63,962 nucleotides of DNA, filler included, from Stramenopiles sp. TOSAG23-6 (GCA_900128565.1; 4 parts of 4 records of this genome joined end to end with filler, not necessarily neighbours in it); one strand, 5' to 3'; counted from the whole stretch's first letter, positions 5,511-63,195 are shown. The notes: generated by a model from the sequence alone, not told the origin. Numbers and translations are program-made.

Positions 5511-7938
5511 ATGCAAATACAATCATCATCTATTCTTCTCCTTCTCTGCTTTATTGGCTATATTGGCTTTATTGCTACAGCTCCAACTGTTCATGGTATG
5601 AAAAAAGATGACCACTGGGTATATCACGTAAAACGATATGAGCGTGATTACGAAATTCCAATGTATGAAGCCATACACAACGGGGACGTACAACTGTTTC
5701 AAACTAAGCTTTTTCAAATGAAGAATGAAGACGATCTTTATTTGAGAAAGCAGATTGTTCCAAACTTGTTACGAAATTCAATATTGAATGGTTCTAGTGA
5801 AAACTGTATCGCCTGTATTCAACTTTTGATTCAAACTTTTCCATGGCTTCTTGAAGAGGAATTACTAAACACGCAAGGGGAACATGGAAAACAAACAAAA
5901 CCTTTAATACTTGCAATACATTCGAATTGTCTTTACACTGCTAAAACATTGATAAATCTAGGTGCAAAGATTCCAAAAGACACAAATACGTTTGAACCAT
6001 TATTTGCATCTATTTCAACGAATAATCTTGTAGGTAGTACTATTATGATTTTTTTTTTTTGTAATTTTTTTTTGTATGAAATTTTGTACCTAACATATTT
6101 TTTTTGATTTTTTTTTTTGAAATTTTTTTTTCACATGATAGATGGGGGTTACAAAATTTATTGATTCTGGTCTTCTTGAAGTGGCGATTAATTTCGCTGA
6201 TCCAACAAAAAATCTCGATACTCCGTTGATAACAGCAGTACGTTCAGGAAATGTTGAAATGGTTCAATTATTTGTAGAATATGGAGCAAATGTAAATGCT
6301 ATAAATACATATCATGAATCAGCTTTATTGCTAGCTGCTGGTACAAATAAAGTCGATATTGTCAATTATCTTTTATTTGAAGCAAACGCTACTGTTGTTG
6401 TGGAACGTCATGACCAACGACATATGTTTTATTTTTTTTTTAACAAAAAAATCGAATTTTTTTTTTTTTTGAAAATTTTGTACCTAACAAATTTCTTAAG
6501 ATTTTTTTTTGAAATATTTTTACAAAATACATTCGATCTAATCCCTCCACTCTATATCGCAAGTCAAAATGGATTTTCTGAAATTGTTCAATTATTAATC
6601 TCTGCTGGAGCTACAGTCGATATTCAGTATAATTGTGTGACTCCATTATTTATTGCAGCAGCAAATGGACATACACATTGTGTTGAAATTCTTTTGAATG
6701 CGACTAGTCAAGATAAAGTTGATTTCTCACATTCAAATTATATGTATGTTTTATTTTTTTTCAATTTTTTTTTTTTTTGGATTTCGTACGAAATTTTGTA
6801 CCTAACAAAAATTAAGTTTTTTTTTTGAAATATTTTTCCAAATTATATGAGTCCATTATATGTAGCCTCTAAAGAAGGACATTCTGAAGTAGTACAAAAA
6901 CTACTTACTGCAGGAGCTGATGTAAATCAAGTACATGATGACATGTATGTTTTTTTTAAATTTTAATTTTTTTTTTTTTTTTTTTAATTTTTTTTTTAAT
7001 TTTTTTTTTATTTTTTTTTTTTAATTTTTTTTTAAAATTTTTTTTTTTTTTTTTAATTTCAATGTTGTACCTAACAATATTTCTTGAAGTTTTGTTTTTG
7101 AAATAATTTTCCACAATACATGTATACTCCTGCTCATATTGCTATTCGTAAAGGTCATATTGATGTACTTGAAACCTTGATCAATTCTGGTGCAAATTTG
7201 TACAAAAGGGATGGATGTGGCCGTACGTTTTTTTTTTGTTTTCAGTTTCTAATTTGTGTTTTTTTTTTCGTACGAAATTTTGTACCTAACAAACAAAATG
7301 ACCAAAAAAAAAAAAAAAAAAATTTCACAATACATTGACTTTACTTCAAACTGCTACTAATGAGTCTTTGGATGAAGACATTTTAGACTACATACTACTT
7401 GAGGAGTCTTTAAATGAAGACATTACAGAATACTTACTTGATATTCTATGGGATTTGGAATATGGATCTGATAATGGAAAAGACGAACAAAAAGGTGATA
7501 CTGATGATGATGATGATGATGATATATGGCTTTTAGATGATCTTACTTCTGATGATGATGATGATGATATTTTAGATGATGATGCAGAAGATATTGAAAA
7601 TGATGAAAATAATTCGGATATACAACAACAACTTGCCAACAATGCGTTTCACAATGGTGCTCCAACAATTAGTACATTTTTACATGGTAATGATGTACAG
7701 TCTTTCGCTGTTGTTTCAAAACAAATGAATACAATAAGTGAATTTGAATTAAGTCAACGACGTGCAAAACGACTTAAAACCAATGCTATTCAAAATGGTC
7801 TTTCGTACTTAAATGGTAATGATACAAAATCTTTACGGTCGTTAGCTGTTGTTTCAAAACAAATGAATACAATAAGTGAGAAACGAATAAACGAAATAAG
7901 TGAATTTGAAAATGAAAATGAAGACTGGGGGACAGAAT
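5511..7938 (+). CDS. Signal peptide + ankyrin repeats + acidic tract + two F-box-like motifs; at least 6 exons
   Basis: TPLxxA ankyrin repeats are restored across introns 6030-6141, 6422-6532, 6744-6848, 6945-7121 and 7223-7335. A probable further donor at 7939 is cut by the palindrome centre. Confidence 0.85.
6030..6141 (+). mobile_element. Introner-like intron, GT-AG
   Basis: ctt|GTAGGT..gtacctaac..ttcacatgaTAG|atg. Confidence 0.85.
6422..6532 (+). mobile_element. Introner-like intron, AT-AT
   Basis: c|ATATGT..gtacctaac..caaaataCAT|tc; 111 nt, frame preserved. Confidence 0.7.
6744..6848 (+). mobile_element. Introner-like intron, GT-AT
   Basis: at|GTATGT..tccaaattaTAT|g gives VDFSHSNYMSPL with correct ankyrin spacing. 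An 11-nt direct repeat caaattatatg spans both junctions. Confidence 0.75.
6945..7121 (+). mobile_element. Introner-like intron, GT-AT
   Basis: at|GTATGT..ccacaataCAT|g; direct repeat acatgtat at both junctions. Confidence 0.8.
7223..7335 (+). mobile_element. Introner-like intron, GT-AT (junction cannot slide)
   Basis: ggc c|GTACGT..ttcacaataCAT|tg act gives KRDGCGLTLL. Confidence 0.8.
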
Positions 7939-7954
7939 GTATTTTTTTTTAATG

Positions 7955-7990
<36 letters not shown>

Positions 7991-8084
7991 AAATTTTTTT
8001 CCCAAAAAATTTTTTTAAAAAATTTTAAAAATTTTTTAAAAAATTTTTAAAATTTTTTAAAAAAATTTTTTGGGAAAAAAATTT

Positions 8085-8120
<36 letters not shown>

Positions 8121-8136
8121 CATTAAAAAAAAATAC

Positions 8137-10564
8137 ATTCTGTCCCCCAGTCTTCATTTTCATTTTCAAATTCACTTATTTCGTTTATTCGTTTCTCACT
8201 TATTGTATTCATTTGTTTTGAAACAACAGCTAACGACCGTAAAGATTTTGTATCATTACCATTTAAGTACGAAAGACCATTTTGAATAGCATTGGTTTTA
8301 AGTCGTTTTGCACGTCGTTGACTTAATTCAAATTCACTTATTGTATTCATTTGTTTTGAAACAACAGCGAAAGACTGTACATCATTACCATGTAAAAATG
8401 TACTAATTGTTGGAGCACCATTGTGAAACGCATTGTTGGCAAGTTGTTGTTGTATATCCGAATTATTTTCATCATTTTCAATATCTTCTGCATCATCATC
8501 TAAAATATCATCATCATCATCATCAGAAGTAAGATCATCTAAAAGCCATATATCATCATCATCATCATCATCAGTATCACCTTTTTGTTCGTCTTTTCCA
8601 TTATCAGATCCATATTCCAAATCCCATAGAATATCAAGTAAGTATTCTGTAATGTCTTCATTTAAAGACTCCTCAAGTAGTATGTAGTCTAAAATGTCTT
8701 CATCCAAAGACTCATTAGTAGCAGTTTGAAGTAAAGTCAATGTATTGTGAAATTTTTTTTTTTTTTTTTTTGGTCATTTTGTTTGTTAGGTACAAAATTT
8801 CGTACGAAAAAAAAAACACAAATTAGAAACTGAAAACAAAAAAAAAACGTACGGCCACATCCATCCCTTTTGTACAAATTTGCACCAGAATTGATCAAGG
8901 TTTCAAGTACATCAATATGACCTTTACGAATAGCAATATGAGCAGGAGTATACATGTATTGTGGAAAATTATTTCAAAAACAAAACTTCAAGAAATATTG
9001 TTAGGTACAACATTGAAATTAAAAAAAAAAAAAAAAATTTTAAAAAAAAATTAAAAAAAAAAAATAAAAAAAAAATTAAAAAAAAAATTAAAAAAAAAAA
9101 AAAAAAAATTAAAATTTAAAAAAAACATACATGTCATCATGTACTTGATTTACATCAGCTCCTGCAGTAAGTAGTTTTTGTACTACTTCAGAATGTCCTT
9201 CTTTAGAGGCTACATATAATGGACTCATATAATTTGGAAAAATATTTCAAAAAAAAAACTTAATTTTTGTTAGGTACAAAATTTCGTACGAAATCCAAAA
9301 AAAAAAAAAATTGAAAAAAAATAAAACATACATATAATTTGAATGTGAGAAATCAACTTTATCTTGACTAGTCGCATTCAAAAGAATTTCAACACAATGT
9401 GTATGTCCATTTGCTGCTGCAATAAATAATGGAGTCACACAATTATACTGAATATCGACTGTAGCTCCAGCAGAGATTAATAATTGAACAATTTCAGAAA
9501 ATCCATTTTGACTTGCGATATAGAGTGGAGGGATTAGATCGAATGTATTTTGTAAAAATATTTCAAAAAAAAATCTTAAGAAATTTGTTAGGTACAAAAT
9601 TTTCAAAAAAAAAAAAAATTCGATTTTTTTGTTAAAAAAAAAATAAAACATATGTCGTTGGTCATGACGTTCCACAACAACAGTAGCGTTTGCTTCAAAT
9701 AAAAGATAATTGACAATATCGACTTTATTTGTACCAGCAGCTAGCAATAAAGCTGATTCATGATATGTATTTATAGCATTTACATTTGCTCCATATTCTA
9801 CAAATAATTGAACCATTTCAACATTTCCTGAACGTACTGCTGTTATCAACGGAGTATCGAGATTTTTTGTTGGATCAGCGAAATTAATCGCCACTTCAAG
9901 AAGACCAGAATCAATAAATTTTGTAACCCCCATCTATCATGTGAAAAAAAAATTTCAAAAAAAAAAATCAAAAAAAATATGTTAGGTACAAAATTTCATA
10001 CAAAAAAAAATTACAAAAAAAAAAAATCATAATAGTACTACCTACAAGATTATTCGTTGAAATAGATGCAAATAATGGTTCAAACGTATTTGTGTCTTTT
10101 GGAATCTTTGCACCTAGATTTATCAATGTTTTAGCAGTGTAAAGACAATTCGAATGTATTGCAAGTATTAAAGGTTTTGTTTGTTTTCCATGTTCCCCTT
10201 GCGTGTTTAGTAATTCCTCTTCAAGAAGCCATGGAAAAGTTTGAATCAAAAGTTGAATACAGGCGATACAGTTTTCACTAGAACCATTCAATATTGAATT
10301 TCGTAACAAGTTTGGAACAATCTGCTTTCTCAAATAAAGATCGTCTTCATTCTTCATTTGAAAAAGCTTAGTTTGAAACAGTTGTACGTCCCCGTTGTGT
10401 ATGGCTTCATACATTGGAATTTCGTAATCACGCTCATATCGTTTTACGTGATATACCCAGTGGTCATCTTTTTTCATACCATGAACAGTTGGAGCTGTAG
10501 CAATAAAGCCAATATAGCCAATAAAGCAGAGAAGGAGAAGAATAGATGATGATTGTATTTGCAT
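8137..10564 (-). CDS. Mirror copy of the ankyrin gene at 5511-7938
   Basis: Exact reverse complement within the palindrome. Confidence 0.6.
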
Positions 10565-11152
10565 CGTTTTGTCTTTTTGTCTTTTTGTCTTTTTGTACAC
10601 CCTTTTTAATGCGCACGCGCGTCACAAATGTTGTTTGTGTAGTTGAGTTGAAAGAATGATCTGAATATCAGATGAGTTACTGAATATTCTATAATCTGAG
10701 TTCCTGGGTCATACGCGTAAAATGATGACGCGCTTTCAAAAACAATAACAGTTTTGTTCCAATATTTTTTTCCACCACAGTAGATAACGATGAATCAAAA
10801 TTTCGGTTATTTTTTACGGGCGGTTATAATTTTTTTAAGATATCACGTGATATTTTCTTGCAGAACGTCGTGTGGTCTACAATACTAGTTATTACAACAA
10901 ATACTAACTTACTATTAGTTATATATACTACGGAACTGAGTTACACATCCTACAATATTTACAAGGAAACAAACTAAACAAACGCAAAAGAAGAAATTAA
11001 TATTTTCGTAATTTTATAAAGTGATAATATCGGATAATAAATTGATCAGCTGACAAGGGAACTAAATATACTTTACCCACCCACGATAAAGCTAAAAAAA
11101 ACTCTACCATTTTTATATTGAAAACAAATATATATTTACAATCTCTCAAATC

Positions 11153-12876
11153 ATGAAAACAATCAAGTGTATATCATGTACAATGTTGCTTTTATCTCAA
11201 TATGTATTGATTATTGAAGCTGCCTTGACACCTTCCATTACACCTTTTCTACGATATCGAAAGGAACGAGGAGATGTTTTAGATTCAACAGAGAGTCTCG
11301 TTGACTATTTAAAGTCTCAAAATGCCAGCAGGAAAGACATCGAACATTTGAAGAATGAACTGTTATTTCCAGGCTCAGCCTTTGAAGACGGCTTTAAGAC
11401 GATGTTACAGTGGTACAACTCAGGGGAAGATGGAAAAATTGCGCTCAAGTTAGTACTCGAAGCACTCGGATTGGAGGATAAAACCTTGGGAGAGATTTAC
11501 GTGAGGTTAATAAGCGCCGCTGGTGAAGCTCCTCCACAACAACTTGGCGCCTTTGGGGATGCTAATAATGGAGACAGCGCAGGCAACGATGGGGGTGCTA
11601 ATGATGGTGAAAGTAAGGGTGAAGCTCCTCCACAACAACTTGGCGCCTTTGGTCAAGTTCCTGGTGTTGAACAAAACGTTGTTGTAGCAGCAGGTCCTGT
11701 AGTAGTTCAACGTCGCGAAGCTCCTCCAATTCCTCCACAACCTGTTGCCTTTTTTGGTGAAAGTAAGGGTGATGGAAATCCGCAAAATCCAAATCCTCTA
11801 AGTGATCCAAATGTGATTGGTCCATACCCTAACGGCTTTCTTCCACGTAGCCCAAGGGTAACACGAATTCTTATTCTTGGCATGTGTGTTGGTGAATATA
11901 TTCTCACAAGTAGACCTGATCGACCATTGCGTGATCGACTAGATATATATGTTTTATTTTTTTTCAAATTCGAATTTTTTTTTTTGGTTTTTTTTTTCGT
12001 ACGAAATTTTGTACCTAACAATTTTTTTTAGATTTTTTTTCAAATATTTTTCCAAAATGCATACCACAAGGGACAGGAATTGAAATTTACTTTATTGATA
12101 ATGGTTTCAATAGTGGTGGCTCAGTAGGTGAGAAAGACTGGTACCTTGCACGTAAAGATGGACAGGAATATGTCGATCAGAATGATGATGATACAATATT
12201 ATTTGATCATATAGGTCAGTTTAACAATCTTCAGGCAAACTTTCAATTACGATTTTTTGATTACATTATGAATGATAAATCAACAAGTAAGTTTTTCCCC
12301 AAAACAATTCATAATCATTCATATGGAAAGGAGCTTGAAGGATTCTTGCGAAACAATGATAGTGAAATGTTTATTCAGAATTTACTAGTTGGTGAGCACG
12401 AACAACACGACGCAGAAGTGACGAATTGCAGAGAGGTTTTACAAGCACAGGTAATCACTATCCGTAAAAAACAGCCAAACTTTTACAGTGAAACACATCC
12501 TCCATCAATCGTGGTGACGACCTCCTGGAATAACAAGTTTTATGCATGCAACATTCAAAAAAAATCAACGATATGGGATGTAAAAGTTGCTTTGGGTCCA
12601 CTGCTGAGCGATGTCCCAATAGAGTATGGTAAATTATTCGGATTTGAATCAATTTCTCAAATATCAAATGATGCAAAAGCAAAGGATTACATGGCAGATG
12701 GAGGAGGTAGACCGTTGCGATACGATGATGGAAATGCAGATGGAATTGCGTTATACTATTTTCAAGAGGGTGTAGATAGATTTCCTCTATACCTTAACCA
12801 AAGAAGTTTTCCATTATATACTGCACGAAGACCTCATGATACTCAAGGTAAAATTTATCGATTCATACTTTTTTAG
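11153..12876 (+). CDS. Mirror copy of the secreted protein at 3199-4922 (intron 11947-12062, AT-AT)
   Basis: gat at|ATATGT..tccaaaatGCAT|a cca joins the two frames. Confidence 0.6.
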
Positions 12877-15857: not shown

Positions 15858-15938
15858 ATGTATAGTAAAGAAATATTTTTTTTTTTTTGACTTTTTTTTT
15901 TTTTTGCTTTTTTTATGTTAGGTACGAAATTTACTATG

Positions 15939-15979
<41 letters not shown>

Positions 15980-16227: not shown

Positions 16228-17427
16228 ATATAACTGACGAGTGACAGCTTTAGCAGCTTTATCACATAAAGCAGGTGACCGACAACCTAGATAAAAATAA
16301 AGTGTTGCTACTTCCAATACGACACCAGAATTTCTACTCATTAGCAAAGGTAATATAGCACGAAGTAGCAGTTTGTGATCTTCATTCATTGAATATTCAA
16401 CATCACTTATTTTGTTTTTCAATTTTTTAGTTGTTTTTCGTTTTTCAGTAATCAAGTCTTCACCATCACTGCTCTCACCTGATTGAGCATAAAATTCATT
16501 CAATGAAATTGGTTTTTTATATGGTATATTATGTGATGTTAAAAGGGCTGATTGGGGGACGTTAGAATTGGATGGAACTGTTAAAGGTGGCGGCTCGAGA
16601 AAGTGCAGACGTGCATGTATTGTGAAAAAATATTTCAAAAAAAAAATTAAATTTGTTAGGTACGAAATTTCGTACGAAAAAAAAAATAAATTAGAAATTC
16701 ATATAAAACGTGCATAACACAACAAGATATTCATTAGCAACATTTGGCTCCATTCGTCAAGATCTGCAACTAGCTGGCAAAGTTTCCGAAAATTTTGATG
16801 CAATAAATCATAACGATCAGGACATACTTCTACAAAAGCTGCTACAGCAGAGCTCAAAACCATTGGCTCTTTATCAGCTAACAACGTCTTTATAGATTCT
16901 ATTAGAACGTCTTTTTGGGATTGATCAAGTTTGAAAAGTTTGGCCACTCCATGAGCAGCAGTTTTTCTCACATATGCGGACGCATCTGTAACACATTGTT
17001 TTACAGCAATTAATTGAATTTGTATAATTTCGCGGACACGAATAGAAGTTAAAACACGTAAAGACAAGGCCCGTATAAGTTGATTAGAGTCTTTAAGGTC
17101 TTTTTGGTATGAATTAATACCCAATAACGCCATCTCCCGACACTGAATAGTCGAGTCAGCATATTGAACAATATACATATATGCCAAACGTTTCAACTCA
17201 ATAGATTTTGCAGATACAGTTTTGACGACAGAAGAAAAGAATTGTGAAACATCACGACCTTTAGATATTTGAGCAAGCAACCACTTCATCCCTTCAATTT
17301 TTTCCGCATCGCCAGAAGCACCAGCCTTACTATCTAGAAGCTTTTTTACCAGCCCAAAATTGATAGTCTCTTCAAAGAAATGTGACTCGCCAATGATGGA
17401 TTTAACACGAGCTTGAGCAGATGTCAT
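16228..17427 (-). CDS. AP3B: AP-3 complex beta subunit, N-terminal part (3' truncated)
   Basis: Adaptin N motifs: GRDVSQFF..VVK, LKRLAYMY, IRALSLRVL, YVRKTAAH, DHKLLL...LLMSRNSGVV. Intron 16615-16713; next donor at 16227. Confidence 0.92.
16615..16713 (-). mobile_element. Introner-like intron, GC-AT, with an 8-nt direct repeat
   Basis: tat|GCACGT..ttcacaataCAT|gca cgt restores LLCY-ARLHF. atgcacgt occurs at both junctions. Confidence 0.8.
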
Positions 17428-21061: not shown

Positions 21062-23055
21062 ATGTCAAACAGGAAACGCAGTTCAAATAAAATGCTGCAT
21101 TCGAAATCGAATGAAACAAATATTCAGAAAACTACACCTAATGCGAGTAAGCGACGTCGTTTGACCTCAAAGAATGGAGAAAAACAAATACAAAGTGAAT
21201 CACCTAATCAGAAAAAAAACGTTCTTCGGTTTTCTTGGGAAGACGATTTCTATAATGATGTAACCCTAGTTTGTGGAGTTGAAGAAGATATATTGAGATG
21301 CTCACGAATCATGCTTGCAGGAGTTTCTCCTATATTTGATAGATTATTTCGTTCTGACTTCAAAGAGACAAGTTCTCAAGGAGAAGTTAGAGTTGTTGTG
21401 CCTCTTACTTCCGCTACAGTTGTGCGGTTTGCTCTTAATTTTATTTACGATCGTGTTATCGACAATAATCTTCTTGACCCAGATATGGTTAAATACATTG
21501 TTCCTCTTTATAATTTTTCTGAAATGTGGGAAATTCGAGGACTCTCAAAGTATATATGTTCCTTCTTTGATAAGGGTAAGAAAGTCAAATGGATCTCACA
21601 ATTTTTATCTGTTTTTCAAAGTGCGCGATTGAGTAATTTCGATAAACTTTGCGATGCAATAAATGGTATACTTCATGAAAATGCTTACATCGTATTTGTA
21701 CTGCGAGAGAAAAATATTGAAGTGGATCAAAAAATATTTGCATCAATATCACCAGAGGTGATGCTAGATTTAATGCACACAGTCTACAAGGGAAAAGATT
21801 CCTCTCGACCAATGCTTTGTGAGATTGATATTTTTCGCTCTATTATTCTTTGGACAAAGTCATGCATCAGTCAGTTAGAAAAAAAATGGGAAATTGACGA
21901 TAAAAACGACGAAAGTGACAAAGAAAATGAAAAGAAACTAAAAATTGAGGGGATTGGCACTACACAAATTGAGGGGAATGGCACCTCCCCGGTGATGAAT
22001 GTTCCAAGTGCCATCGCACTGAAAAAAACATCTCACACTTCGTCAAACATTTCAACGAAAAAGTTTGATCGAGCAGTGAAAATGCTGGAATTAATTGTAC
22101 GTTTTCTTAATCTAATCAATTTGATTTTTTTTTTTTGATGTCGTACGAAATTTCGTACCTAACGAATTTCGAATATAAAATATTTTTCACAGAACTTGAA
22201 CGTTCCAAATGGGTAATGTCGAATTTATCTTTGCAATGGTATCGCTTGGTACCTAATCTCATAAAGACAGAAATCGAACCTTGTAGACTTTGCTCGGATA
22301 ATTTATTAATAAAACTTTATCGCCAATCAAGTAGTATCACAGGCCATAGGAAGTTACAAATTTATCATCCAAAATCATATAAATCAACTCCGTATCAATC
22401 AAGTTCTACGGTTGCTAGGAATTTTAGGCGGGTTAGGGTTACAAATGGTGAAGAAGATGAAAGTGGTGGGGATCTCCCACGGCTTATTAGGGTTTTGAGT
22501 GAAGAAGATGAAAGTGAAGAAGATGAAAGTGAAGAAGATGAAAGTGAAGAAGAAGAAAGTGAAGAAGAAAGAAGTGAAGAAGAAGAAAGAAGTGAAGAAG
22601 AAAGTGAAGAAGACGTTAATACCTCTACTAAAACATCTAAAAGTTCAAAGAAAAAACTTGAAGTAAGAAAACATGAAACCTGTGTACCTACATCAACTGT
22701 ATCAGAGTATACATCCTACACAAAAAAAATATCTCCTGATGAAGATAAACTAGGTCTTACAACTTTTAAATCGGTCGATTTGAATGGTTTTGGAATATTA
22801 TTTCTAAAAGAGGATTCTGATGAATTAATTAAAAGGGGTGTTATGACTGCGTATGATGCAAAATCAGGAAGACATTTGGTTATATTTGAGTCAGGCCTTT
22901 CTTGTGGTTGGTATAATGTAGAGTTACTTATTAAGTGCAATACGAAGGAAGCTACTGTGTGTCTAACTCCAAATAGTATCAATACTATTTCAAAAAGTGT
23001 TGGTAAAACTATTAAAAAGTATATGAACATTATCAAGAGTGGGAGGGAAATGTGA
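21062..23055 (+). CDS. BTB/POZ(-BACK) domain protein, 2 exons
   Basis: DVTLVCG..CSRIMLAGVSPIFDRLF..F.E BTB motif. A family intron starts at 22097. Confidence 0.75.
22097..22197 (+). mobile_element. Introner-like intron, probable GT-TT
   Basis: att|GTACGT..ttcacagaaCTT|gaa. The nearby CAG (ending 22192) is out of phase with the donor. Confidence 0.55.
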
Positions 23056-23162: not shown

Positions 23163-24880
23163 TCATTTGGAACGCCATAAATGTAAAGAACGGTCATAGA
23201 AAGAACAAGTAACAATTAATGGTTCTTTATCCTTGATATAATCTTCATGTTGCACCCAGTCAGCTCCGTAAACCATAGATGAATGCTGATTATGCCATGA
23301 AATATTACTTAATTGTACATTTGATGCATTTGATTCAAAGCGTTGTTCATTGCGCCCAACATCCAACGTATATGCACCACCTCGCATACATGCTGCTAAT
23401 AACATATTTTTTGCATTTGGAGACGGATTCCATTTCAAACGCCAGATGCCGCCGCATACTTTATCATTTGGAGGGAACCATCTAGAGATTGGTCCTTTTT
23501 GTATGGCTCGAGTATCCCAGAGCCTAACACATCCGTCATATGAGCCACTTGCTAGAACATTAGGGTAATATGGATGACTTTGTATCGTCGTGACACCTGC
23601 AGAATGTTCAGATATTGGTGCTTTTGCTTGAGGAGTTAAAAAGTCACAACGAAGATCCCAAGCAAATAAGTTGGAGTCATATTTTGTGAAAAANTATTTT
23701 TTTTTNGTAAAAAAAAATCGTTAGGTACAAAATTTTCTATGAAAAAAAAATGAAAGGAATGATGAAAACATACATCAGCACCAGAGAAAAGCACATTTGG
23801 TGAATGTGCGTCATATGCTGCAATCCACACTTCGGCTTCAGCTCCACCAGGATACCTATGAGCAGACCAACGTTTTTCTAAAGATATATCTTCACCTGGT
23901 CTACCCACCCTATAGAGTGCTAACTTACCATCTGATTGACTGGTAGCTACTTGAGGAGATATCGTCGGAGTTATTCTTGTCGACCAATCGAGTGATAGTA
24001 CATGTGGTATTGTAGAAGACATTTCACTACATGGTGCTGCATCACCCTTTGCAATTTCGTGTAAACCAGAATTGTTCACATTATTAGGATGAGTGAACGA
24101 AAATATCTGAAAGCAACCATCAGCTGTTACTACACCTAAAACAGCTCCTCCAGATGACACATCACCATGAAAGTTGGTATCATTATCGTCATTATTATCA
24201 TTATCAAGAGACATATAAAGTGGCTGAGGACTCCACTTTAAGTCAAATACAGCTGATAAATCCACATGGCCTTGTTGACGAAGTTTTGTAGCATCACTTT
24301 CCTTAGAAGCAAGGGTACATGTAGTATAATCTTTTCTACCATCTATTTTATAAGTATATATTTGCCCACTTTTTATACCAGTGGACTTATCCAAGTGATA
24401 CGAACCGACGACAGCGTATTCATTATATGTGTCAATCGGACACCACTCAATTGAATCAGCTTCCAAAGAAGTATTTTGCTTTTGAATTGCATCGGTGCTA
24501 GTCAGGGAAAACTCCTCAAAATTTATACCAGAAACAGGAAAAGAAGCAAATGGATCACGTAATTTACCATGATCACGTGCAAGTGACTGTGCACGCTGCT
24601 CAATTACAACAGTATTATCCTGAACAAGTGACTGTTGCTCAACTACAAGTGACTGTTGCTTAACTACAACAGTAGGTTCGCTACAGCCTGGTACATCTAT
24701 TTCCTCTAAAAACAACTCCTTTGATCTTACATCGGCAGCAATGTTTTCAACAAAGGCTGCTTCACTTTCACTTTGTCCTTCTTCAGCATAATCCGACTCG
24801 TTACACTCACTCTCAGACGAATCAGAAAAGTCAGAACCAAATAAAGTTGTTGATACACCAAGAGGAATACACTTTTCCAT
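23163..24880 (-). CDS. DPH7: Diphthine methyl ester acylhydrolase (WD40), 2 exons
   Basis: ADSIEWCP, EVWIAAYD, SGAD|DSNLFAWDLR, SMVYGADW and TCSFYD motifs. Confidence 0.88.
23679..23773 (-). mobile_element. Introner-like intron, GT-AT
   Basis: gat|GTATGT..ttcacaaaaTAT|gac restores the conserved SGxDD. Confidence 0.85.
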
Positions 24881-55798: not shown

Positions 55799-55911
55799 TA
55801 CTTGGCCTTGACATGAGATATGTAAGAAGAAAGCAAGTTTTATAAAATAAAAAGTGTGAATGATTAGAAAATATTTCGAGGAACATATTATTGAGTTATT
55901 TATTATAAGCC

Positions 55912-56583: not shown

Positions 56584-56851
56584 AACGCGAACTCAAAACC
56601 TTCACTTGATTTCTTTTTGAAACGAAATCTATAAGTCTCCCTGTGAGCTCCAAAATTTCAATAATATATTGTAAACAATTTTAGTATTAGAGATGTCAAC
56701 TACGTACCTGCTTGAGAGACCACGTAGTAAAATATAGGGTCTGATAATTATTAATCTAATATAGGTCAAACCGGCAAAGTTGTATTCTGGGACTTGGTGA
56801 TTGTTTCCAAATGCGGAAGCGGAACGAACAACAAGCGAATTTTGACCGAAG

Positions 56852-56879
56852 CTAACCCTAACCCTAACCCTAACCCTAA
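56852..56879 (+). repeat. Interstitial telomeric (CCCTAA)4 / telo-box in a divergent promoter
   Basis: ctaaccctaaccctaaccctaaccctaa. Confidence 0.8.
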
Positions 56880-57222
56880 GCCATTGGAACGATTTTGACT
56901 TTTTTACACGCGATGTGTATATCGCGATTTTGAGATTATTCGTCTTCGGCATATTATTTTATTAGGTATTAGGTATATTATATAGCCGTACTATCTCTAG
57001 CTAGGGCACCATCGACAACAACATTAGTAGATTCTTGCCTTCTCTTTACGTCTTCGAAGATTAACAATATATATGTACTGCTATCGGTGATGAAATTGTT
57101 ATCTTCTATGAATCGCAAGGCAACTATTGTAAATGTAGATATTCTCGCTACAAACATCAGGAACTCCTAAAACCCTCTCGACTGTTCTTTTAGACGCTTT
57201 TTGCGGTAGAACCTTATACAGA

Positions 57223-59804
57223 ATGTCCGGCTCAGTGGAAAGAGAAATATTGTTTAATTATCCTTCTTCTACACTTACGAAATGGATTGCACAACCTGGT
57301 ATTACTGTGAGCAAAGGGGATACACTCGCGCGCTGCCGCGGAAGTAGTAAGCGTTACACTGTTGTGGCACCTTGCCGAGGCGAAATAGTATCACACAGTG
57401 TAACTGAGGGTGCTTCACTAACACGAGGTTGCCGTGTCGCTATCTTCAAGGAGAAACAGTGTCTTCATACAATTTGTTACAGCGGTCTGTGTGCTACTTG
57501 TGGCGAGACGATGCCTAAAAAGGGAAACAGTGGAAGACTTTTGTCTTCCAAACAAACTTTGAGTGGCATAGGTTCTCAATCAAGTAGAAAAGGCACGATA
57601 GTCAATACTGGTGCTGGTCATGAACTTCTCGTGATGGGGTCGGAGGCAGCACATCTTCAAAGGGAAGCCGAAGCTCGTTTGATAAAAAAACGGCAACTTG
57701 TAGGTTTTCAAAATTGAATTTTTTACCTATTTTTTTTTTGTAGTAAATTTTGTACCTAACAAAGTTTTTACTTTAAAAAAATCACAATACATGCTTTGAT
57801 CTTAGATTTAGATAGCACAATAATAGAAAGTACAGTTGATACGTCAGCAATGGAGTTATTAGCTCCTCAACATGCTACATCATGGTTAAAAGCAGGCTTA
57901 GAACCCATAAAAATTTTACGTGTGGGTGGTATGCCCTACTATCTAAAATTGCGTCCAGGTGTTCGCGAGTTTCTTAATTTAGCCTCTAAAAAATTTGAAT
58001 TACACATTTACACACATGGCAATAGGCAGTATGCTGAAGAAATTCGAAAAGTTCTTGATCCTAAATGTACATTATTTAATGAACGTATTATTGCTCGCGA
58101 TGACGTCACTCAAGGGACAACACTTGGGAAAGATAGAGCTGATAAACCAGTATATCATAAAACACTTGAAAGACTTTTTCCACTTGATGATTCAATGGCT
58201 ATTATAATTGATGATCGTGCAGATGTTTGGCGGTTTGCTGAGAATGTCATTCAAGTTCTTCCATATCATTTCTTCAATTGTCTTCGTAGAATGAAAAACC
58301 TTTTTGATTCTCAAAAGAATGTTCAACCTAAAAATATTTCAAAAACAAATAGCTCAATTCCATTGGCGTCATATGCACCTCAACCAAAAAATATAGATAC
58401 TTCTAAACATCTCAAAAATGATAGTACTGTACTAGATGAACTTACACGAGATAAACATGTATGTTTGTTTATTTATATCATTTCAATTCATTTTTTTTTC
58501 GTAGTTAATTTTGTACCTAACGAAACAAAATCAAATTTTTGAAATATTTTCATACAAAACATGGTGATTTGGATCAATTGGAAAATTTGCTTGTAGTCAT
58601 TGAAAAAATACATAGTGAGTTTTATAGTGGATTTGATGAGAAAAAACATCAAGCAAAAAAAAATAGTAGAATAGAAGAATATAATATTGTAGGTACTAGG
58701 GAACTCACTCAACGACATCGTTGTACTGTTCTCCGTGGTGTACATATATCATTTAGTGGTGTATTTGAACTTTCTGATAATTTCCCTGAAAATCAAAAGA
58801 TTTGGAAAAATTGTGTTTCACTTGGAGCAAAGTGTAGTAAATCACTCACTGCACATACGACGCATCTGATTGCAAAACGATCACGAACAGCGAAAATTCA
58901 AAAGGCAACACAAATGCCTGGTGTATGGGTGGTCAATCCAAAATGGGCAGATGCAGCGTATTGGTGTTTGTCTTTTCCTGATGAGTCGAAATTTTTACTT
59001 CCTGGTATGGAAAGAATTTTACCAAAAGGAGGCATTACTGCTGCAAAAAAAATTCTTTGTGAAAGACAGTTAATGCTGAATGCATCTATAGCTAACGAGA
59101 CAAAAAATAGTTTTGATCGAAAGAGACGCCATAATGCAGATAATACACATGAGAAAGTCAAGCGAAGGCGTAATGTATCGTTTCATCAGGTTAATACTGT
59201 AAATTCTAAAAGTGGAAAAGTTGAACAAAAATATTGTGATGATGATGATGATTACCGATATAGTGATGAAGATGAAGGATTTGGGTATTGGGTCGACAAG
59301 AGTTCTAAAAAATGTGTACAACCTAATGCTAAAAACATTAATAATCAAGTTACAAATTCGAAATTTTCTAGTCGTTCAAACCATTTGGAAATAGAAGCTA
59401 ATGATAGTCTTGATTCTTGGACAAAAGATCAGTTACAACTATTCAAACCAAACACTCACACAGATAAGGATAATAATGATTTTCAACATGGTGATGGGAT
59501 AAATAGTAATAATAACATTTGTAGTGAAGAGGATAGTGATGACGATATTAGTGATGACGATGCTGATTTAGAAGCTGGTTTGTTCGAAACAGATAATGTA
59601 AGTGAATGTAAAGAAAAAGTTCCACTTGAAAATTCGTTACATCCCTCCTTAATACAGCCAATGACTCAAGCGAAACAGCGTATCAGTGCCGAAGAAATCT
59701 TGAAAAAGAGCTCTGAAAAATTCCCAGGTGGGCAAAAAATGATCCTTTCTAACAGTAAATCAACACCTATGCCTGATCCTACGAGTGATGATGATTTTTT
59801 TTAA
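57223..59804 (+). CDS. CTDP1: RNA Pol II CTD phosphatase FCP1, 3 exons
   Basis: Biotinyl-like N-domain, C.H....GLCA.CG, LILDLDSTI, KLRPG, IIDDR.DVW and BRCT. Introns 57700-57792 and 58459-58562. Confidence 0.92.
57700..57792 (+). mobile_element. Introner-like intron, GT-AT
   Basis: ctt|GTAGGT..atcacaataCAT|gct restores KRQL-ALILDLD. Confidence 0.85.
58459..58562 (+). mobile_element. Introner-like intron, GT-AT
   Basis: cat|GTATGT..tacaaaaCAT|ggt; aaacatg repeat at both junctions. Confidence 0.8.
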
Positions 59805-60293
59805 TTGGCCTAGATTAAAATATATGATAATATTAGAGGTGATTTCGAAATCAAATATTTTTTTTTTTTAGTTGAAATATTTTAAAGCGACGTAGACTTC
59901 AATAAAAAGGAATGTACACATTCATCTTTGTTTATTGGTTTTATTAGGTTCAATATTTTGAAGAATATTTCTCTTATTTGGATGATTCTTGGAACAAAGA
60001 TTACTTTCCCATTTATCATTGTTATTTGTTAGAAATATAATGGATACTGTTTTTTTCTTGAAATGTTGAATCTTGTTTGAAGAACCCATTATTTACTTAC
60101 CGTACTTATTAATTACTGTAGGAATTTCGAAAATTATTATAGCTCAATAAAAGCGTCTTAGTTAAAAGTGGTTCAAATGCACTCACTCATGATAAAGAGA
60201 TAATGGAAAATTGAGAATATTTTATTTTTCATATAAATTCAATTCATTGTATTTGATTCAATCAATTTATTCAATTTTTTTCATCAGTTTACA

Positions 60294-60920
60294 CTAAAGT
60301 TTTTTGTGATACTCTTTTTTGTGTGTCTTCCAATGTGATTTTTGACACTTCTTTGAACAATAACACACACATTTACACCCAGTACAAACGAATAATTTAC
60401 TATTATTGTCAACTTTACCACAATTTACACATTCTGAGTTGTCGTGTTCTATTATCATTTTTTTTAGTTTCTCTTCTGTTGTATCTGTTATCTGCTTTTT
60501 TGCTTTCTTGATCCACTTTGCTCCTAATTTATAATTTTTAGTGACACCCAGACCATCCAAATAAAATATACCAAGAGTAAGCTGTGCTGCCATGTGCCCT
60601 TGTTTTGCAGCTTTTGTATGCCATTCGATAGCAGTTTTATAACATTGAGTGACACCATAGCCATTCGCATAAAATGCACCAAGACTAAGCTGTGCTTCCA
60701 TGTGGCCTTGATTTGCAGCTTTTGTAAACCATTCAGCAGCAGTTTTATAACATTTATTGACACCCTCACCATTAAAATAACATTCACCAAGACTATGCTG
60801 TGCGTCCATATTGCCTTGTTTTGCAGCTTTTGTAAACCATTTTACAGCAGTTTTATAACATTTACTGACACCATCACCATTCTTCATATACGATAATCCA
60901 CGTAAATATTGTGCGTCCAT
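60294..60920 (-). CDS. Sel1-like repeats + MYND zinc finger (5' end apparently degenerate)
   Basis: AQ.SLG..Y.NG.GV..CYKTA..WFTKAA.QG repeats; C..C...C..C...YCS..CQ..HW..HK. Confidence 0.85.
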   Translation of the reverse strand: MDAQYLRGLSYMKNGDGVSKCYKTAVKWFTKAAKQGNMDAQHSLGECYFNGEGVNKCYKTAAEWFTKAANQGHMEAQLSLGAFYANGYGVTQCYKTAIEWHTKAAKQGHMAAQLTLGIFYLDGLGVTKNYKLGAKWIKKAKKQITDTTEEKLKKMIIEHDNSECVNCGKVDNNSKLFVCTGCKCVCYCSKKCQKSHWKTHKKEYHKKL

Positions 60921-61384
60921 TTTTTGTGGCCTTGATCTGCGGCTTTTGTATGTACTCGAATAAGAAGTGTTAGTCTTCTTAATTGAATGAATTATAGCAG
61001 GGTAGAGCGTAACGCGTTCTGATTAGTTTCTGAGTCAGTTAGATTAAAAAGAATGAAATTAATTCTCTTGAATTCTATTCTACGATTGGATGAAAGTGAA
61101 CACCACAAGATACGAGAGAAACTCTCATCTGTTTTCCTTGATTGAGCGACACGTTATAATTATCTTAATTCATCCTTCGATCGGAATTTTTTTTATTTCG
61201 TGCGAAATTTCAAATTGGATAAAATTTCGTGTTTTTTTTGATGAAAATAATATAAGAGTCAAAAAAACGCACTTGAGCAATGAAAAAAATTCATCTCTCA
61301 CCTTAGTTTTTAATTATCATTAGATTACTTAGTCTATATGACATTGTGTATTGTGAAGCGCCTGGGATGTGTCCTAAAAAGACA

Positions 61385-63195
61385 ATGAAGTTGCTATTCA
61401 TAGTACTCTTTGGTTTATCTGTCTCATCAGCCGAAGAATTATATTGTGGTGGAAAAAATTGCTATGAAATTTTGGGTGTCGAAGCAACAGCAACAACTCA
61501 GGAGATTAAAAGAGCTTACCGTAAACTATCGTTAGTGTGGCATCCTGATAAAAATCCAGGTGATGTCAAAGCTACTGAAAAGTTTTTGTTAATAAGTAGT
61601 GCAAACGAAGTCCTTTCGGATGATGAATCTCGACAAGACTATGATTATTATCTCAAACATCCTGACTCTGTGTTATACAACAACTTCCGTTATCACTATA
61701 GATTTGCCAAGAAAACAGATTTGCGTGTAGTTATTGCTGTATTTATTGTATTTGTTTCAGTTTTACAGTATATACTTTCAGTGCAAGACCGTGCAAGATT
61801 AATTCGCGTATTTCGTGGAAGTGACATTATTGTGCATCGAGCTCGTGTTCGCGCAGCAGAATTGATTCAGTCGAATAAAGAGAAGAAATGTAATGCAAGT
61901 AATAATTCAAATAATTTCCTTACGGAAGCTTTAGATCAATTAACAAATGAAGCTGATAATGCTGGGACCTTTCCAAATCCTTCATGGCGAAATGTCCTGA
62001 TTCCTCAACTTTTTTTGTTACCCATTACAATATACAATTATTTTCAAAATCTTAAAAAAAAAGATTTGGAGGTTGAAAAAGCCAAAGAATTTGATTTACA
62101 CATGCAAAAGGTAGAAGATAACGTACGCAGAGAACGCCAAAACTTTCAAAAACAAAAAATGACAAAACGCAGATTGAAGCATGAGCAGATTCGGCTCTCT
62201 AAACTTGAAAAAGAAAAACAAGCTGAAAGTCTCAGAATAAAAGTATGTTTTATTTTTTTTTTCACAAAAAAATCGAATTTATTTTCGTACGAAATTTTGT
62301 ACCTAACGATTTTTTTTGAAATATTTTTCCAAAATAAAAGCTGCAGAAAGAGAAATTCTCGAAAATGAAAGTCGGAAACAAATACGTGCTGCCAAGGTAA
62401 AGGCTATTCGTGTATGGCGGAAACGAATGATTATCCTAACAAGTAACCTTAACCCTATACAGAATGATATAAAAAATATCTCCGAAGATGACATTAATTT
62501 TCTAGCTAACCGAGTAGAAGTAAATATATTACAGAATATTTCAACATTGTCCCAACTACAAGCATTATTAGTTACTGAAAAACAATCCAAGGTGAAAGAA
62601 GATGCGGAGCTTCTTAGTCTTCGTATAGAAAGAGAAAAAAATGTAAAGGAAAAATTAAAAATACAAAAAATGCAAATGTCTCAATGGTCTGAGATGGAAA
62701 CAACATGTACGTTTTATTTTTTTTCAATTTCGAATTTATTTTTTTTTAATACGAAATTTTGTACCTAACAAAAAAAAATAAATTTTTTAAATATTTTTTT
62801 TCAATACATGTTTAGCCAAAGCAGTAGCTAGGTTTCCAGGAGGTACAGTGAAACGCTGGAGTAAAATTACGGATTACGTTAATAAACATTGTTCCTGTGA
62901 TAAAACTATAAAACAGTGTATGTTAAAATATAAGAAAAAATGGTCTGAACCCTCTCCTCCACAACGAGGAGTTCTCCAGCCTAATTCACTATTACCCAGT
63001 ACTAGCACCTGGTCAGTAGAGCAACAAAAACAATTAGAAATGGCTTTAAAGTTAGTAAAGAAAGGCAATAAAGTTTCTTGGGAAAATATAGCAGAAAACG
63101 TTGATGGCAAAAGTATCCAAGAATGTAAAAAACGTGTCAAGACAATTCGAAACAGAGTTATCGCTTCAAAGAGCCAACAGAGTGGGAACAAATAA
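61385..63195 (+). CDS. DnaJ protein with signal peptide, TM helix and two C-terminal SANT/Myb domains, 3 exons
   Basis: LYCG..NCYEILG, HPDKN, WSE..LAKA..RFPGGT..RW and WS.EQQK.LE.AL motifs. Introns 62243-62339 and 62707-62809. Confidence 0.88.
62243..62339 (+). mobile_element. Introner-like intron, probable GT-AA
   Basis: ata aaa|GTATGT..tccaaaataAAA|gct; aataaaag repeat at both junctions. Nearby AGs give frameshifts. Confidence 0.65.
62707..62809 (+). mobile_element. Introner-like intron, GT-AT
   Basis: aca t|GTACGT..tcaataCAT|gt tta; acatgt repeat at both junctions. Confidence 0.85.

What the first reader, a model, noticed from the sequence alone, without database searches (positions are those of the whole stretch)
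6030..62809. Non-AG acceptor introns dominate: GT-AT is the majority class
Seen: of 28 junctions fixed by frame and conserved protein motifs (palindrome counted once), only 5 are GT-AG. The rest are 16 GT-AT, 2 AT-AT, 1 GC-AT, 2 probable GT-TT, 1 GT-AA and 1 GT-TG. They interrupt conserved genes (MTO1, FCP1, DPH7, AP3B, DEAD-box, SRD5A) on all four unrelated contigs and are always sense to the host gene. Donors look U2-type (GTAYGT) and a CTAAC branch-like motif lies ~30-55 nt upstream, but there is no polypyrimidine-AG. The cut instead falls at a fixed place in a 12-mer TYCAMAATAYAK. Some junctions (7223-7335, 57700-57792) cannot slide to AT-AC. Established: AG is near-universal, with known exceptions such as U12 introns (expanded in Physarum), Fritillaria and Amoebophrya. 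Inference: a spliceosome with relaxed or rewired 3' splice-site recognition. I do not recognise this GT-AT-dominated pattern as a described system.
Basis: partly seen in the sequence, partly recalled or inferred. Interest (0 to 1): 0.95.

Follow-up and report, generated by a model that had tools for sequence, protein, structure and literature searches.

The report
Introns ending in AT, not AG
In this marine protist genome nearly every intron is a copy of one ~100-base repeated element that starts with the usual GT but ends with AT instead of the near-universal AG, which would make it a rare case of a cell whose splicing machinery does not need AG.

Summary
I could place 28 introns in the window. 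In the register that starts each intron at the conserved G/A-T, they are 17 GT-AT, 3 AT-AT, 1 GC-AT, 4 GT-AG, 2 GT-AA and 1 GT-TT (or GT-AG three bases on).

Twelve junctions are fixed to the residue by gap-free continuity with intron-free homologues or Pfam profiles. Eight are GT-AT and one is GC-AT; these lie in MTO1, FCP1, a DEAD-box helicase, SRD5A and AP3B. Three are GT-AG, all in MTO1. Several GT-AT junctions cannot slide to AT-AC. Nearby AGs are skipped.

Its parts are GTAYGTTTT, a GTACCTAAC branch box and a 3' box TTYCAMAATAYAT. All copies are sense to their genes, and contigs break inside them. An unrelated metagenome contig carries the same intron.

A database protein identical to a window ORF labels the organism as a MAST-3 marine stramenopile. 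That assembly's own gene models force AG acceptors and delete conserved residues.

No direct RNA junction was obtained. The closest known systems are Fritillaria tunicates (3' AT is their commonest end) and introner transposons. I found no report for stramenopiles.

The parts
4013..4128 (-). intron, AT-AT (ATATGTTTTA...CCAAAATGCAT); mirrored at 11947-12062 (+) in the palindromic contig
   Evidence: nhmmer hit. A 116-nt length is the one that joins ORFs of 283 and 270 codons (end coordinate corrected).
6030..6141 (+). intron, GT-AG (GTAGGT...GATAG), same family
   Evidence: frames 192/228 codons
6422..6532 (+). intron, AT-AT, not slidable
   Evidence: frames; frame only
6744..6848 (+). intron, GT-AT; 10-11 nt direct repeat at its two junctions
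6945..7121 (+). intron, GT-AT (slides to AT-AC)
7223..7335 (+). intron, GT-AT, not slidable (ggcc|GT)
   Evidence: Frames 40/204; no slide. The joined product keeps ankyrin DxxGxTxLxxA spacing (consensus recalled).
16615..16713 (-). intron in AP3B, GC-AT; 8-nt repeat ATGCACGT at both junctions
   Evidence: LLCY|ARLHF is gap-free against P0128-P0136; sliding options
22097..22194 (+). intron, GT-AA or GT-CA; the AG at 22192 is out of frame; uncertain
23679..23773 (-). intron in a WD40 gene, GT-AT
   Evidence: frames 372/171
30370..30522 (+). intron in SRD5A, GT-AT; contains an unused first 3' box ending at 30450
   Evidence: Steroid_dh profile ends at 127 in the upstream exon and resumes at 128 in residue 1 of the last exon
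31486..31586 (-). intron in DEAD-box helicase, GT-AT, not slidable to AT-AC
   Evidence: frames 211/45; Helicase_C positions consistent across the junction
31243..31357 (-). intron in DEAD-box helicase, GT-AT, not slidable to AT-AC
   Evidence: Helicase_C profile 90|91 at the exon ends
30959..31053 (-). intron in DEAD-box helicase, GT-TT at the fixed box place, or GT-AG 3 nt further (both in frame)
35059..35359 (+). intron with an N run inside, GT...AT
   Evidence: nhmmer halves; sequence
35523..35640 (+). intron, AT-AT
   Evidence: frames 82/174 (start corrected)
38141..38391 (+). MTO1 intron, GT-AG (CATATAG|)
   Evidence: GVIH|VGRQTY against P0126
38944..39043 (+). MTO1 intron, GT-AT
   Evidence: THKIIN|DHLDELP has the same length as in P0126
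39158..39342 (+). MTO1 intron, GT-AT
   Evidence: [12 protein letters not shown] against P0126; GIDA profile 285|286-287
39517..39693 (+). MTO1 intron, GT-AG
   Evidence: NVEY|DYVDP against P0126; GIDA 337|338
39775..39955 (+). two MTO1 introns collapsed by the assembly (exon of ~60 aa missing); 5' end GT, 3' end AT
   Evidence: P0126 and P0125 carry the missing exon. EPY|RMFTSR fixes the 3' cut after GTATAT, not at the CACAG 5 nt upstream.
40427..40586 (+). MTO1 intron, GT-AT; skips TTTTTTAG 7 nt upstream of the cut
   Evidence: SQDGVN|RTAFDIL has the same length as in P0126
40918..41035 (+). MTO1 intron, GT-AG
   Evidence: LDFRKA-F-PFLRTED against P0126
43512..43612 (+). intron in a DUF4116 gene, GT-AT
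   Evidence: frames 398/274
47792..47885 (+). intron, GT-AT, not slidable to AT-AC; degenerate branch box TTGAC
   Evidence: frames 239/86
57700..57792 (+). FCP1 intron, GT-AT, not slidable to AT-AC
   Evidence: RLIKKRQL|ALILDLDSTI is gap-free against three fungal FCP1
58459..58562 (+). FCP1 intron, GT-AT
   Evidence: Frames 233/413. It lies in a variable region, so it is not fixed by homology.
62243..62339 (+). intron in a DnaJ-Myb gene, GT-AA at the fixed box place; the AG one base further is out of frame (equivalent to TA-AG)
   Evidence: frame only
62707..62809 (+). intron in a DnaJ-Myb gene, GT-AT
   Evidence: frames 133/127
38716..38846 (+). 3' part of an MTO1 intron after an N run, ends ...CCAAAATACAT
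   Evidence: AT+G gives the Met of PMSF, as in P0126
48419..48478 (+). 3' part of an intron at a contig start, ends ...AAAATATAT; other contig ends also break inside the element (32167-32221 -, 63908-63962 -, 16175-16227 -)

Best explanation
The window comes from an AT-rich marine stramenopile of the MAST-3 type. Its genes are interrupted by copies of one short (93-301 nt, median about 110) introner-like intron family.

Each copy carries four parts:
- a yeast-like 5' splice site, GTAYGTTTT;
- a branch box, GTACCTAAC, often preceded by the other arm of the palindrome GTACGAAATTTCGTAC;
- an A/T-rich spacer;
- a 12-nt 3' box, TTYCAMAATAYAT.

The introns are removed from pre-mRNA, most likely by the major (U2-type) spliceosome. 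The 5' cut is before G of GTAYGT. The 3' cut is after the last base of the 3' box, 33-49 nt downstream of the branch A.

At the 3' end, position -2 is A in 25 of 28. Position -1 is free: T in 21, G in 4, A in 2 and never C. (The remaining intron, 31053-30959, ends TT at the box place, or AG three bases further on.) So the 3' site is chosen by box and distance, not by AG.

The family probably spread by insertion next to (Y)AT|G sites. The terminal YAT may be partly a copy of the target site, as in introners that co-opt their 3' site from a target-site duplication.

Shown: the family, its anatomy, the junction positions implied by protein continuity, and the skipping of AGs.

Inferred: that removal is spliceosomal and U2-type, the box-and-distance rule, and the mode of spread.
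For: Family. The alignment of 21 introns shows one shared architecture from end to end. A profile finds 46 hits. Contig ends lie inside the element. An unrelated metagenome contig, L001, carries the same intron in frame.

Junctions. Eight GT-AT, one GC-AT and three GT-AG junctions are fixed to the residue.

AG is not used. AGs lie 2-7 nt upstream of three cuts, at 22097, 39955 and 40586; homology excludes their use at 39955 and 40586, and frame alone at 22097-22194. At 62339 the AG is one base past the cut and out of frame.

GT register. G1, T2 and A-2 are near-invariant only in this register. The -2 register gives a mix of AT-AC, AT-AT, CC-AC and others.

RNA-level, strand-specific removal. 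27 of 28 introns are sense by the ORF test. The element is present at depths in the thousands in contigs of poly(A) metatranscriptomes from three studies, and the calls listed no letter differences at the intron ends that were covered.

Taxon. P0004, labelled GSMAST32, is identical to a window ORF apart from annotated gaps. The next-best hits are oomycetes, Blastocystis and other stramenopiles.

Target-copy hint. Direct repeats across the two junctions are longer in true pairs than in shuffled pairs (p = 0.00025, n = 23). The block -4..-1 gives p about 0.01 (n = 28).
Against: No spliced RNA junction was seen. In the one read-laying run no contig bridging a predicted junction was among the 15 of 30 joints shown.

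The register cannot be proved without cDNA or lariats. 8 of the 22 introns in the sliding table can be read as AT-AC, and protein data cannot tell GT-AT from a cut shifted equally on both sides.

Several rare classes rest on frame alone in a draft single-cell-type assembly: 3 AT-AT, 2 GT-AA and 1 GT-TT.

The target-duplication signal is weak position by position. Only position -3 stands out, and blocks -8..-5 and +1..+8 are not significant.

No consensus RNA fold was found.

No snRNA or splicing factor of the organism could be inspected.
Confidence: 0.7

Rival explanations
1. The introns are AT-AC introns (U12-type, or the rare U2-type AT-AC class). The true cuts lie two bases upstream of those proposed, in front of the AT that precedes GTAYGT and after ...ATAC.
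For: 17 of 28 upstream exons end in AT. 8 of the 22 introns in the sliding table give the same mRNA when read as AT-AC. A1/C-1 is a known compatible pair of intron ends (recalled).
Against: In that register, introns ending TAT become AT-AT: 6744, 23773, 38944 and 39775. Six introns cannot slide at all: 7223 (CC), 31586 (TC), 31357, 57700 and 35059 (TT), and 47792 (GT). Two of these, 57700-57792 and 31357-31243, are fixed to the residue; 31586-31486 is consistent with the Helicase_C profile on a weak match (E 0.15). The 5' site is not RTATCCTT. The branch box lies 33-49 nt from the 3' end, outside the short U12 range, which I recall as about 10-26 nt.
Confidence: 0.08
2. The elements are not spliceosomal. 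They are removed at the DNA level, like ciliate internal eliminated sequences bounded by short direct repeats, or by another RNA pathway, as proposed for euglenid nonconventional introns.
For: Short direct repeats (AT or CAT) bound most copies. The 3' end lacks AG. A 6-nt complementarity, AT|GTAT with ATACAT|, could bring the ends together (seen directly in the sequence).
Against: Every copy carries a GTAYGT donor and a CTAAC box at spliceosomal spacing. All copies are sense to the gene (27 of 28 by test), which DNA excision would not require. The element is abundant in RNA-library contigs. No conserved pairing was found.
Confidence: 0.05
3. It is an artefact or a set of dead genes: assembly or amplification errors put T where the genome has G, or the interrupted genes are pseudogenes and nothing is spliced there.
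For: The assembly is poor. Contig 1 is a perfect 16,074-nt palindrome. One MTO1 exon is lost. N runs are frequent.
Against: The same T-ending box recurs in 21 of 28 introns on four contigs and on the independent contig L001. RNA-library contigs from three studies cover the elements without listed differences at the ends that are covered. Exons keep 63-83% identity to P0126 with exact spacing at every junction. That is not expected of pseudogenes, whose introns would add in-frame stops.
Confidence: 0.03

Closest known systems
Non-canonical U2-type introns of Fritillariid tunicates (Fritillaria borealis, F. pellucida)
   Same: 3' AT is the commonest intron end there: 44% in F. pellucida and 34% in F. 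borealis. A YAY triplet often precedes the 5' site and almost always forms the last three intron bases. An origin from introner-type transposons is discussed (PMC13326754, sections 21 and 26 read; review PMC11282704, passages). In this window the intron ends YAT in 21 of 28 and the upstream exon ends YAT in 12 of 28, or AT in 17 of 28.
   Different: In Fritillaria the 5' ends are mostly non-GT (AG/AC and AG/AT classes) and the ends are very diverse. Here the 5' site is a strong GTAYGT in 24 of 28, there is a strong CTAAC box, and all introns belong to one sequence family with a 12-nt 3' box. The host here is a stramenopile protist, not a chordate. This would be an independent origin.
Introners (intron-generating transposable elements) of Micromonas, Aureococcus, Chrysochromulina, dinoflagellates and others
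   Same: Many near-identical short introns sit in unrelated genes of an aquatic protist. In some families the element carries the 5' site and co-opts the 3' site from a 4-bp target-site duplication, for example Chrysochromulina (PMC9860276, passages). A weak repeat signal of that kind is seen here.
   Different: By the passages I read, the described families end in AG or AC. Surveys discard families with unfamiliar splice sites unless RNA supports them (PMC12130899, passage). Here the co-opted or carried end is AT. I found no clear terminal inverted repeats beyond 6 nt, no fixed-length duplication and no copy outside genes within the window.
U12-type (minor) introns, including the rare GT-AT and AT-AT variants and the Physarum expansion
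   Same: Non-AG 3' ends, with tolerance at the last position. GT-AT is listed among rare U12-type borders (PMC1557818, search listing only).
   Different: The 5' site and the branch box here are not the U12 consensus. The branch-to-3' distance of 33-49 nt is too long.
Extended, fixed 3' intron motifs of intron-poor protists (Giardia and Trichomonas ACTAACACACAG; conserved branch-to-3' spacing)
   Same: A conserved 12-nt 3' terminal box and a narrow branch-to-3' distance (the motif is recalled; PMC2483917 was seen in a search listing only).
   Different: Those boxes include the branch point and end in AG. Here the branch box is separate and the box ends in AT.

Membership tests
Major (U2-type) spliceosomal introns | 5' splice site GTRNGT-like, able to pair with U1 and U6 | tested here: met
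   G1 in 24/28, T2 in 26/28, A3 in 26/28, G5 in 25/28 and T6 in 26/28
Major (U2-type) spliceosomal introns | branch motif CTRAY some 18-50 nt upstream of the 3' end | tested here: met
   A CTAAC/T or TTGAC box is found in 26 of 28. The distance is 33-49 nt in 24 of those 26; the outliers are 21 and 121.
Major (U2-type) spliceosomal introns | 3' end YAG | tested here: not met
   AG in 4 of 28 and AT in 21 of 28; nearby AGs are skipped
Major (U2-type) spliceosomal introns | precise removal from mRNA by U1/U2/U4/U5/U6 snRNPs through a lariat | not testable with these tools
   Removal is implied by protein continuity. No spliced read was obtained. No genome is held in which to look for snRNAs.
Minor (U12-type) introns | 5' site RTATCCTT and branch site TCCTTAAC within about 10-26 nt of the 3' end (consensus recalled) | tested here: not met
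   The 5' consensus is GTAYGTTTT. The branch box GTACCTAAC lies 33-49 nt away.
Introners / introner-like elements | many sequence-similar introns in unrelated genes | tested here: met
   alignment; 46 profile hits on four contigs; one more on L001
Introners / introner-like elements | target-site duplications and/or terminal inverted repeats | tested here: inconclusive
   The run-length test gives p = 0.00025. Position by position, only -3 is enriched and the block -4..-1 gives p about 0.01. The only inverted repeat is AT|GTAT with ATACAT|, seen by eye.
Introners / introner-like elements | copies outside genes, an autonomous partner, or presence/absence polymorphism | not tested
   The window holds only genic, sense copies. 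No genome was available.
Fritillaria-type non-canonical introns | YAY triplet before the 5' site and as the last three intron bases; 3' AT or AC | tested here: met
   The intron ends YAT in 21/28. The upstream exon ends YAT in 12/28 and AT in 17/28.
Fritillaria-type non-canonical introns | mostly non-GT 5' ends (AG/AC, AG/AT); larvacean tunicate host | tested here: not met
   GT starts 24/28. The best protein relatives are stramenopiles and the database label reads MAST3.
Euglenid / diplonemid nonconventional introns | no conserved borders; extensive base pairing that brings the ends together | tested here: not met
   The borders are conserved. RNAalifold predicts 0 pairs on 15 introns.

The most novel reading that the evidence does not exclude
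A free-living marine stramenopile lineage (MAST-3) has a major spliceosome for which YAT, not YAG, is the default 3' splice site. In this reading the site is picked by a 12-nt box at a set distance from the branch point and not by AG. The box would be carried by a single introner family that has colonised the genome, with the terminal AT partly copied from its insertion target. That would be the first protist, and the second lineage after Fritillaria, with mostly non-AG U2-type introns. It would have arisen independently while keeping textbook 5' and branch signals. It predicts changes in the second-step and 3'-site factors (U2AF35-like, Prp8, Slu7, Prp18, Prp22).
Probability: 0.55. Interest if true: 0.85.

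Novelty: new variant of a known kind. Interest (0 to 1): 0.8.

Why it matters
The terminal AG is one of the most constant signals in eukaryotic gene expression. In the second catalytic step it is read by pairing with the 5' G and the branch A (recalled from spliceosome structures).

A genome in which three quarters of introns end in AT, yet keep a canonical GT and branch site, would be a natural experiment. It would show how much of that recognition can be replaced by a flanking box and a distance rule. It would also show how a transposon-like intron family can drag the splicing code with it.

There is a practical side too. The public gene models of this assembly force AG acceptors. At all four loci I checked they cut conserved residues out of proteins:
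- P0004, a kinase;
- P0124 and P0125, MTO1;
- P0127, AP3B.

Gene counts and functional inferences for this lineage are therefore likely to be biased until the splice rule is used.

Tried and rejected
RNA test. One run search found six seawater metatranscriptome runs holding 5-13% of the sampled words of 50000-59900.
- Exons are covered thinly by 150-437-nt contigs.
- The intron element is covered at depths in the thousands, as a repeat.
- No contig bridging 57699/57793, 58458/58563, 62242/62340 or 62706/62810 was among the 15 of 30 joints shown.
- One 195-nt contig starts 4 nt inside the end of intron 62707-62809 with two unmatched leading letters. That fits a spliced transcript, but it is too short to count.
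- So there is no verdict on splicing from RNA.

Tunicate hypothesis. The Atlas search put the PX-kinase nearest to chordate SGK clusters, and the YAY pattern recalled Fritillaria. I rejected this once the word-based search gave a MAST3-labelled identical protein followed by stramenopile hits.

Conserved RNA structure. The palindrome beside the branch box suggested a hairpin, but RNAalifold gave 0 pairs.

More copies elsewhere. A 20-nt element pattern found only one JGI/GenBank metagenome contig, L001.

Same-species spliced proteins. None were found. The clusters of P0125, P0126 and P0127 are singletons, and no kinase hit above 80% other than the model of the same locus turned up.

Rfam gave no hit in the window.

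I considered and dropped a linkage between the GTACGT or GTATGT donor type and the CACAAT or CAAAAT box type as a sign of subfamilies. A rough count by eye was not convincing.

Henriet et al. 2019 (Curr Biol) is not held; what I say about it is recalled or second-hand. Supplements of all papers were closed. A note on splice sites in the supplements of the MAST genome papers could exist.

Full report
Layout of the window. The window is four contigs of about 16 kb (1-16074, 16175-32221, 32322-48318, 48419-63962). They are joined by artificial spacers of N44-TTAATTAATTAA-N44. GC content is 0.22-0.41. Contig 1 is identical to its own reverse complement over all 16,074 bases, so it is an inverted-duplication artefact, and I counted its introns once. 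Rfam finds nothing at gathering score. No whole genome is held.

The repeated element. GTACCTAAC occurs 36 times against 0.21 expected.

Lining the sites up shows that these are not isolated motifs. Every intron is a copy of one stereotyped unit:
- GTAYGTTTT(A), then a T-run;
- often CAATTTCGAATTT, then another T-run;
- (C)GTACGAAATTTYGTAC-CTAAC;
- an A/T-rich spacer, often with GAAATATTTTT;
- C(C)A(A/C)AATAYAT.

A profile built from 13 clean copies finds 46 hits in the window. Four contig ends lie inside the element. That is what an assembler does at a high-copy repeat.

A scan of public metagenome contigs with a 20-nt piece of the element found a single contig, L001. L001 shares nothing else with the window. 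It carries ...AAACAT|GTATGTTTTAG...CGTACGAAATTTCGTACCTAAC...TTTTTCACAATACAT|GG... between two ORFs that join in phase 1.

Where the cuts are. I placed the 5' cut before G of GTAYGT and the 3' cut after the last base of the box. With those cuts, long ORFs continue in one phase across most introns. Frames alone cannot exclude an in-frame AG nearby, so I sought residue-level checks.

(a) MTO1. A 730-aa intron-free MTO1 from a JGI contig, P0126, is 63-83% identical to the exons. It was laid on the window with tblastn. Every junction gives the same length as P0126:
- THKIIN|DHLDELP (38944-39043);
- [12 protein letters not shown] (39158-39342);
- NVEY|DYVDP (39517-39693, GT-AG);
- SQDGVN|RTAFDIL (40427-40586);
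- LDFRKA-F-PFLRTED (40918-41035, GT-AG);
- GVIH|VGRQTY (38141-38391, GT-AG).

The Pfam GIDA profile runs 252-285 | 287-337 | 338-364 over three consecutive exons.

The stretch 39775-39955 lacks an exon of about 60 residues. P0126 has it, and so does P0125, a second model from the same assembly. So two introns were merged by the assembler. P0125 ends that exon with ...EPY and then reads into GTACGT, while the window resumes with RMFTSR after ...GTATAT. This matches EPYRMFTSR in P0126 and excludes the CACAG five bases upstream.

(b) FCP1. RLIKKRQL|ALILDLDSTI aligns without a gap to three fungal FCP1 proteins across 57700-57792.

(c) SRD5A. The Steroid_dh profile stops at position 127 on the last residue before 30370. 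It restarts at 128 on the first residue after 30522. So the first box, at 30450, is not the acceptor.

(d) DEAD-box helicase. The Helicase_C profile reads 50-90 up to the last residue before 31357 and 91-110 from the first residue after 31243. Across 31586-31486 the positions also add up.

(e) AP3B. LLCY|ARLHF aligns gap-free to P0128 (63% identical) and five others across 16713-16615.

Classes and register. The 28 window introns divide as follows.
- 17 GT-AT, counting the merged pair once.
- 3 AT-AT, which begin ATATGTTTTA.
- 1 GC-AT.
- 4 GT-AG.
- 2 GT-AA. At 62243-62339 the AG one base further on is out of frame. 22097-22194 is uncertain.
- 1 GT-TT, which could equally be GT-AG three bases further on.

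Because 17 of 28 upstream exons end in AT, 8 of the 22 introns in the sliding table give the same mRNA when read as AT-AC. That register fails elsewhere. Introns ending TAT become AT-AT, and six introns have no AT in front of the GT: 7223, 31586, 31357, 35059, 47792 and 57700. Two of these, 57700-57792 and 31357-31243, are fixed to the residue; 31586-31486 is consistent with the Helicase_C profile on a weak match (E 0.15). Only the GT register gives near-invariant G1, T2, A3, G5, T6 and A-2. I therefore accept GT-AT as the most economical reading. Only cDNA or lariats can prove the register.

AG is passed over. AGs lie 2-7 nt upstream of the cut in three introns. TTTTTTAG at 40579 and CACAG at 39950 are excluded by P0126. 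Further AGs lie close to the branch box. The spacer between branch box and 3' box is only about 50% T and is sometimes poly(A).

Orientation. 27 of 28 introns have longer sense than antisense flanking ORFs. The 28th precedes the short basic tail of the helicase. I saw no antisense or clearly intergenic copy in the window.

What organism. The Atlas search put the PX-kinase ORF near chordate SGKs, and the intron ends recalled Fritillaria. But the word-based search gave as best hit P0004, a EukProt entry labelled GSMAST32. After it came oomycetes, Blastocystis and other stramenopiles with the same PX-kinase architecture. P0004 is identical to the window ORF except for five gaps that remove conserved kinase segments. 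It is therefore a gene model of this very locus with false introns. The host is thus a MAST-3-type marine stramenopile, which fits the seawater metatranscriptomes that hold parts of it.

The other models from the same assembly are also wrong at these introns. P0124 and P0125 skip VIWLEPE by using an AG inside the exon. P0127 skips RLHFLEPPPLTV. The annotation evidently assumed AG.

RNA evidence. Exons are covered thinly by short contigs. The element is covered at depths of hundreds to thousands in poly(A) libraries from three studies. None of the 15 of 30 joints shown bridges a predicted junction. The call lists no letter differences at the covered intron ends. That argues weakly against an assembly error or editing to AG. 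One contig begins four bases inside the end of 62707-62809 with two unmatched letters. A spliced transcript would look like this, but it is too short to count.

How it probably works. These steps are inferred. The donor and branch box are those of a U2-type intron, and the strict sense orientation points to removal from RNA. The 3' cut lies 33-49 nt from the branch A in 24 of the 26 introns with a recognisable box. It always falls at the end of the 12-nt box. Position -2 is A in 25 of 28, while position -1 is T, G or A. So I propose that the box and the distance define the 3' site, not AG. The last base would then be tolerated opposite G1, or opposite A1 in the AT-AT copies. RNAalifold found no conserved structure.

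Origin. The end-to-end similarity marks an introner-like family. Direct repeats spanning the two junctions are longer than in shuffled pairings (mean 3.5 against 2.2 nt; p = 0.00025, n = 23). The longest are 11, 8, 8 and 8 nt. Position by position, only -3 is enriched, and the block -4..-1 gives p about 0.01. This fits a short target-site duplication that supplies the terminal YAT, as in introners that co-opt their 3' site (PMC9860276, passages). It is not proven.

Comparison with what is known. The nearest described system is the Fritillaria lineage. There 3' AT is the commonest end and a YAY triplet marks both junctions (PMC13326754, sections 21 and 26). It differs in its mostly non-GT 5' ends, its diversity and its host. 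Introners are the nearest in origin. U12-type introns, euglenid and diplonemid nonconventional introns and ciliate-type DNA elimination each fail a defining feature (see the membership table).

Searches for GT-AT introns, MAST-3 with introns or splicing, and introners in stramenopiles found no report of this pattern. The main texts of two MAST genome papers and two introner surveys were searched for intron, splice and MAST terms, and none describes it. Supplements were closed and Henriet et al. 2019 is not held, so a note there cannot be excluded.

Verdict. The finding is best filed as a new variant of a known kind: an independent, protist case of mostly non-AG, U2-like introns, carried by one introner-like family. 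It still awaits direct RNA proof.

Noticed in passing
window 1-16074: Contig 1 is a perfect palindrome, identical to its own reverse complement at 16,074 of 16,074 bases. This is most likely an amplification or assembly chimera, so its genes and introns appear twice.
   Followed up: yes
window 51798-54089 (-); 38141-41195 (+); 16177-17430 (-): Public gene models of the same assembly (P0004, P0124, P0125, P0127) cut false introns out of a continuous kinase ORF. They also force AG acceptors that delete conserved residues of MTO1 and AP3B.
   Followed up: yes
window 39775-39955: An MTO1 exon of about 60 residues (GTTGYEE...EPY in P0126) is missing. Two introns seem to have been merged at their shared repeat. 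The exon is present in model P0125, so the assembly appears to hold a second copy of this region.
   Followed up: partly
window 31769-31786, 35730-35741, 40727-40738, 41197-41208, 54379-54390, 56856-56879, 63512-63523: Telomere-like (CCCTAA)n runs of two or more units stand inside or at the ends of genes. In MTO1 and the helicase gene they lie on the sense strand, where they encode N-P-N-P stretches. One overlaps the MTO1 stop codon.
   Followed up: no
window 30439-30450 versus 30511-30522: One intron carries two tandem branch-box plus 3'-box modules. Only the second restores the SRD5A C-terminus. The first lies about 23 nt from its branch A.
   Followed up: partly
window 26960-29104 (+), 42318-44437 (+), 54803-55798 (+): These are single-exon ORFs with MACPF, DUF4116-repeat and trehalose-phosphatase domains. 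The long intron-free ORFs show that intron density is uneven among genes.
   Followed up: no
L001 2380-2420 (-): Downstream of the family intron in L001 there is a conventional-looking donor, CCAAG|GTAAGT, followed by CCCTAA-like repeats. I did not determine whether it is an ordinary intron or the gene's end.
   Followed up: no
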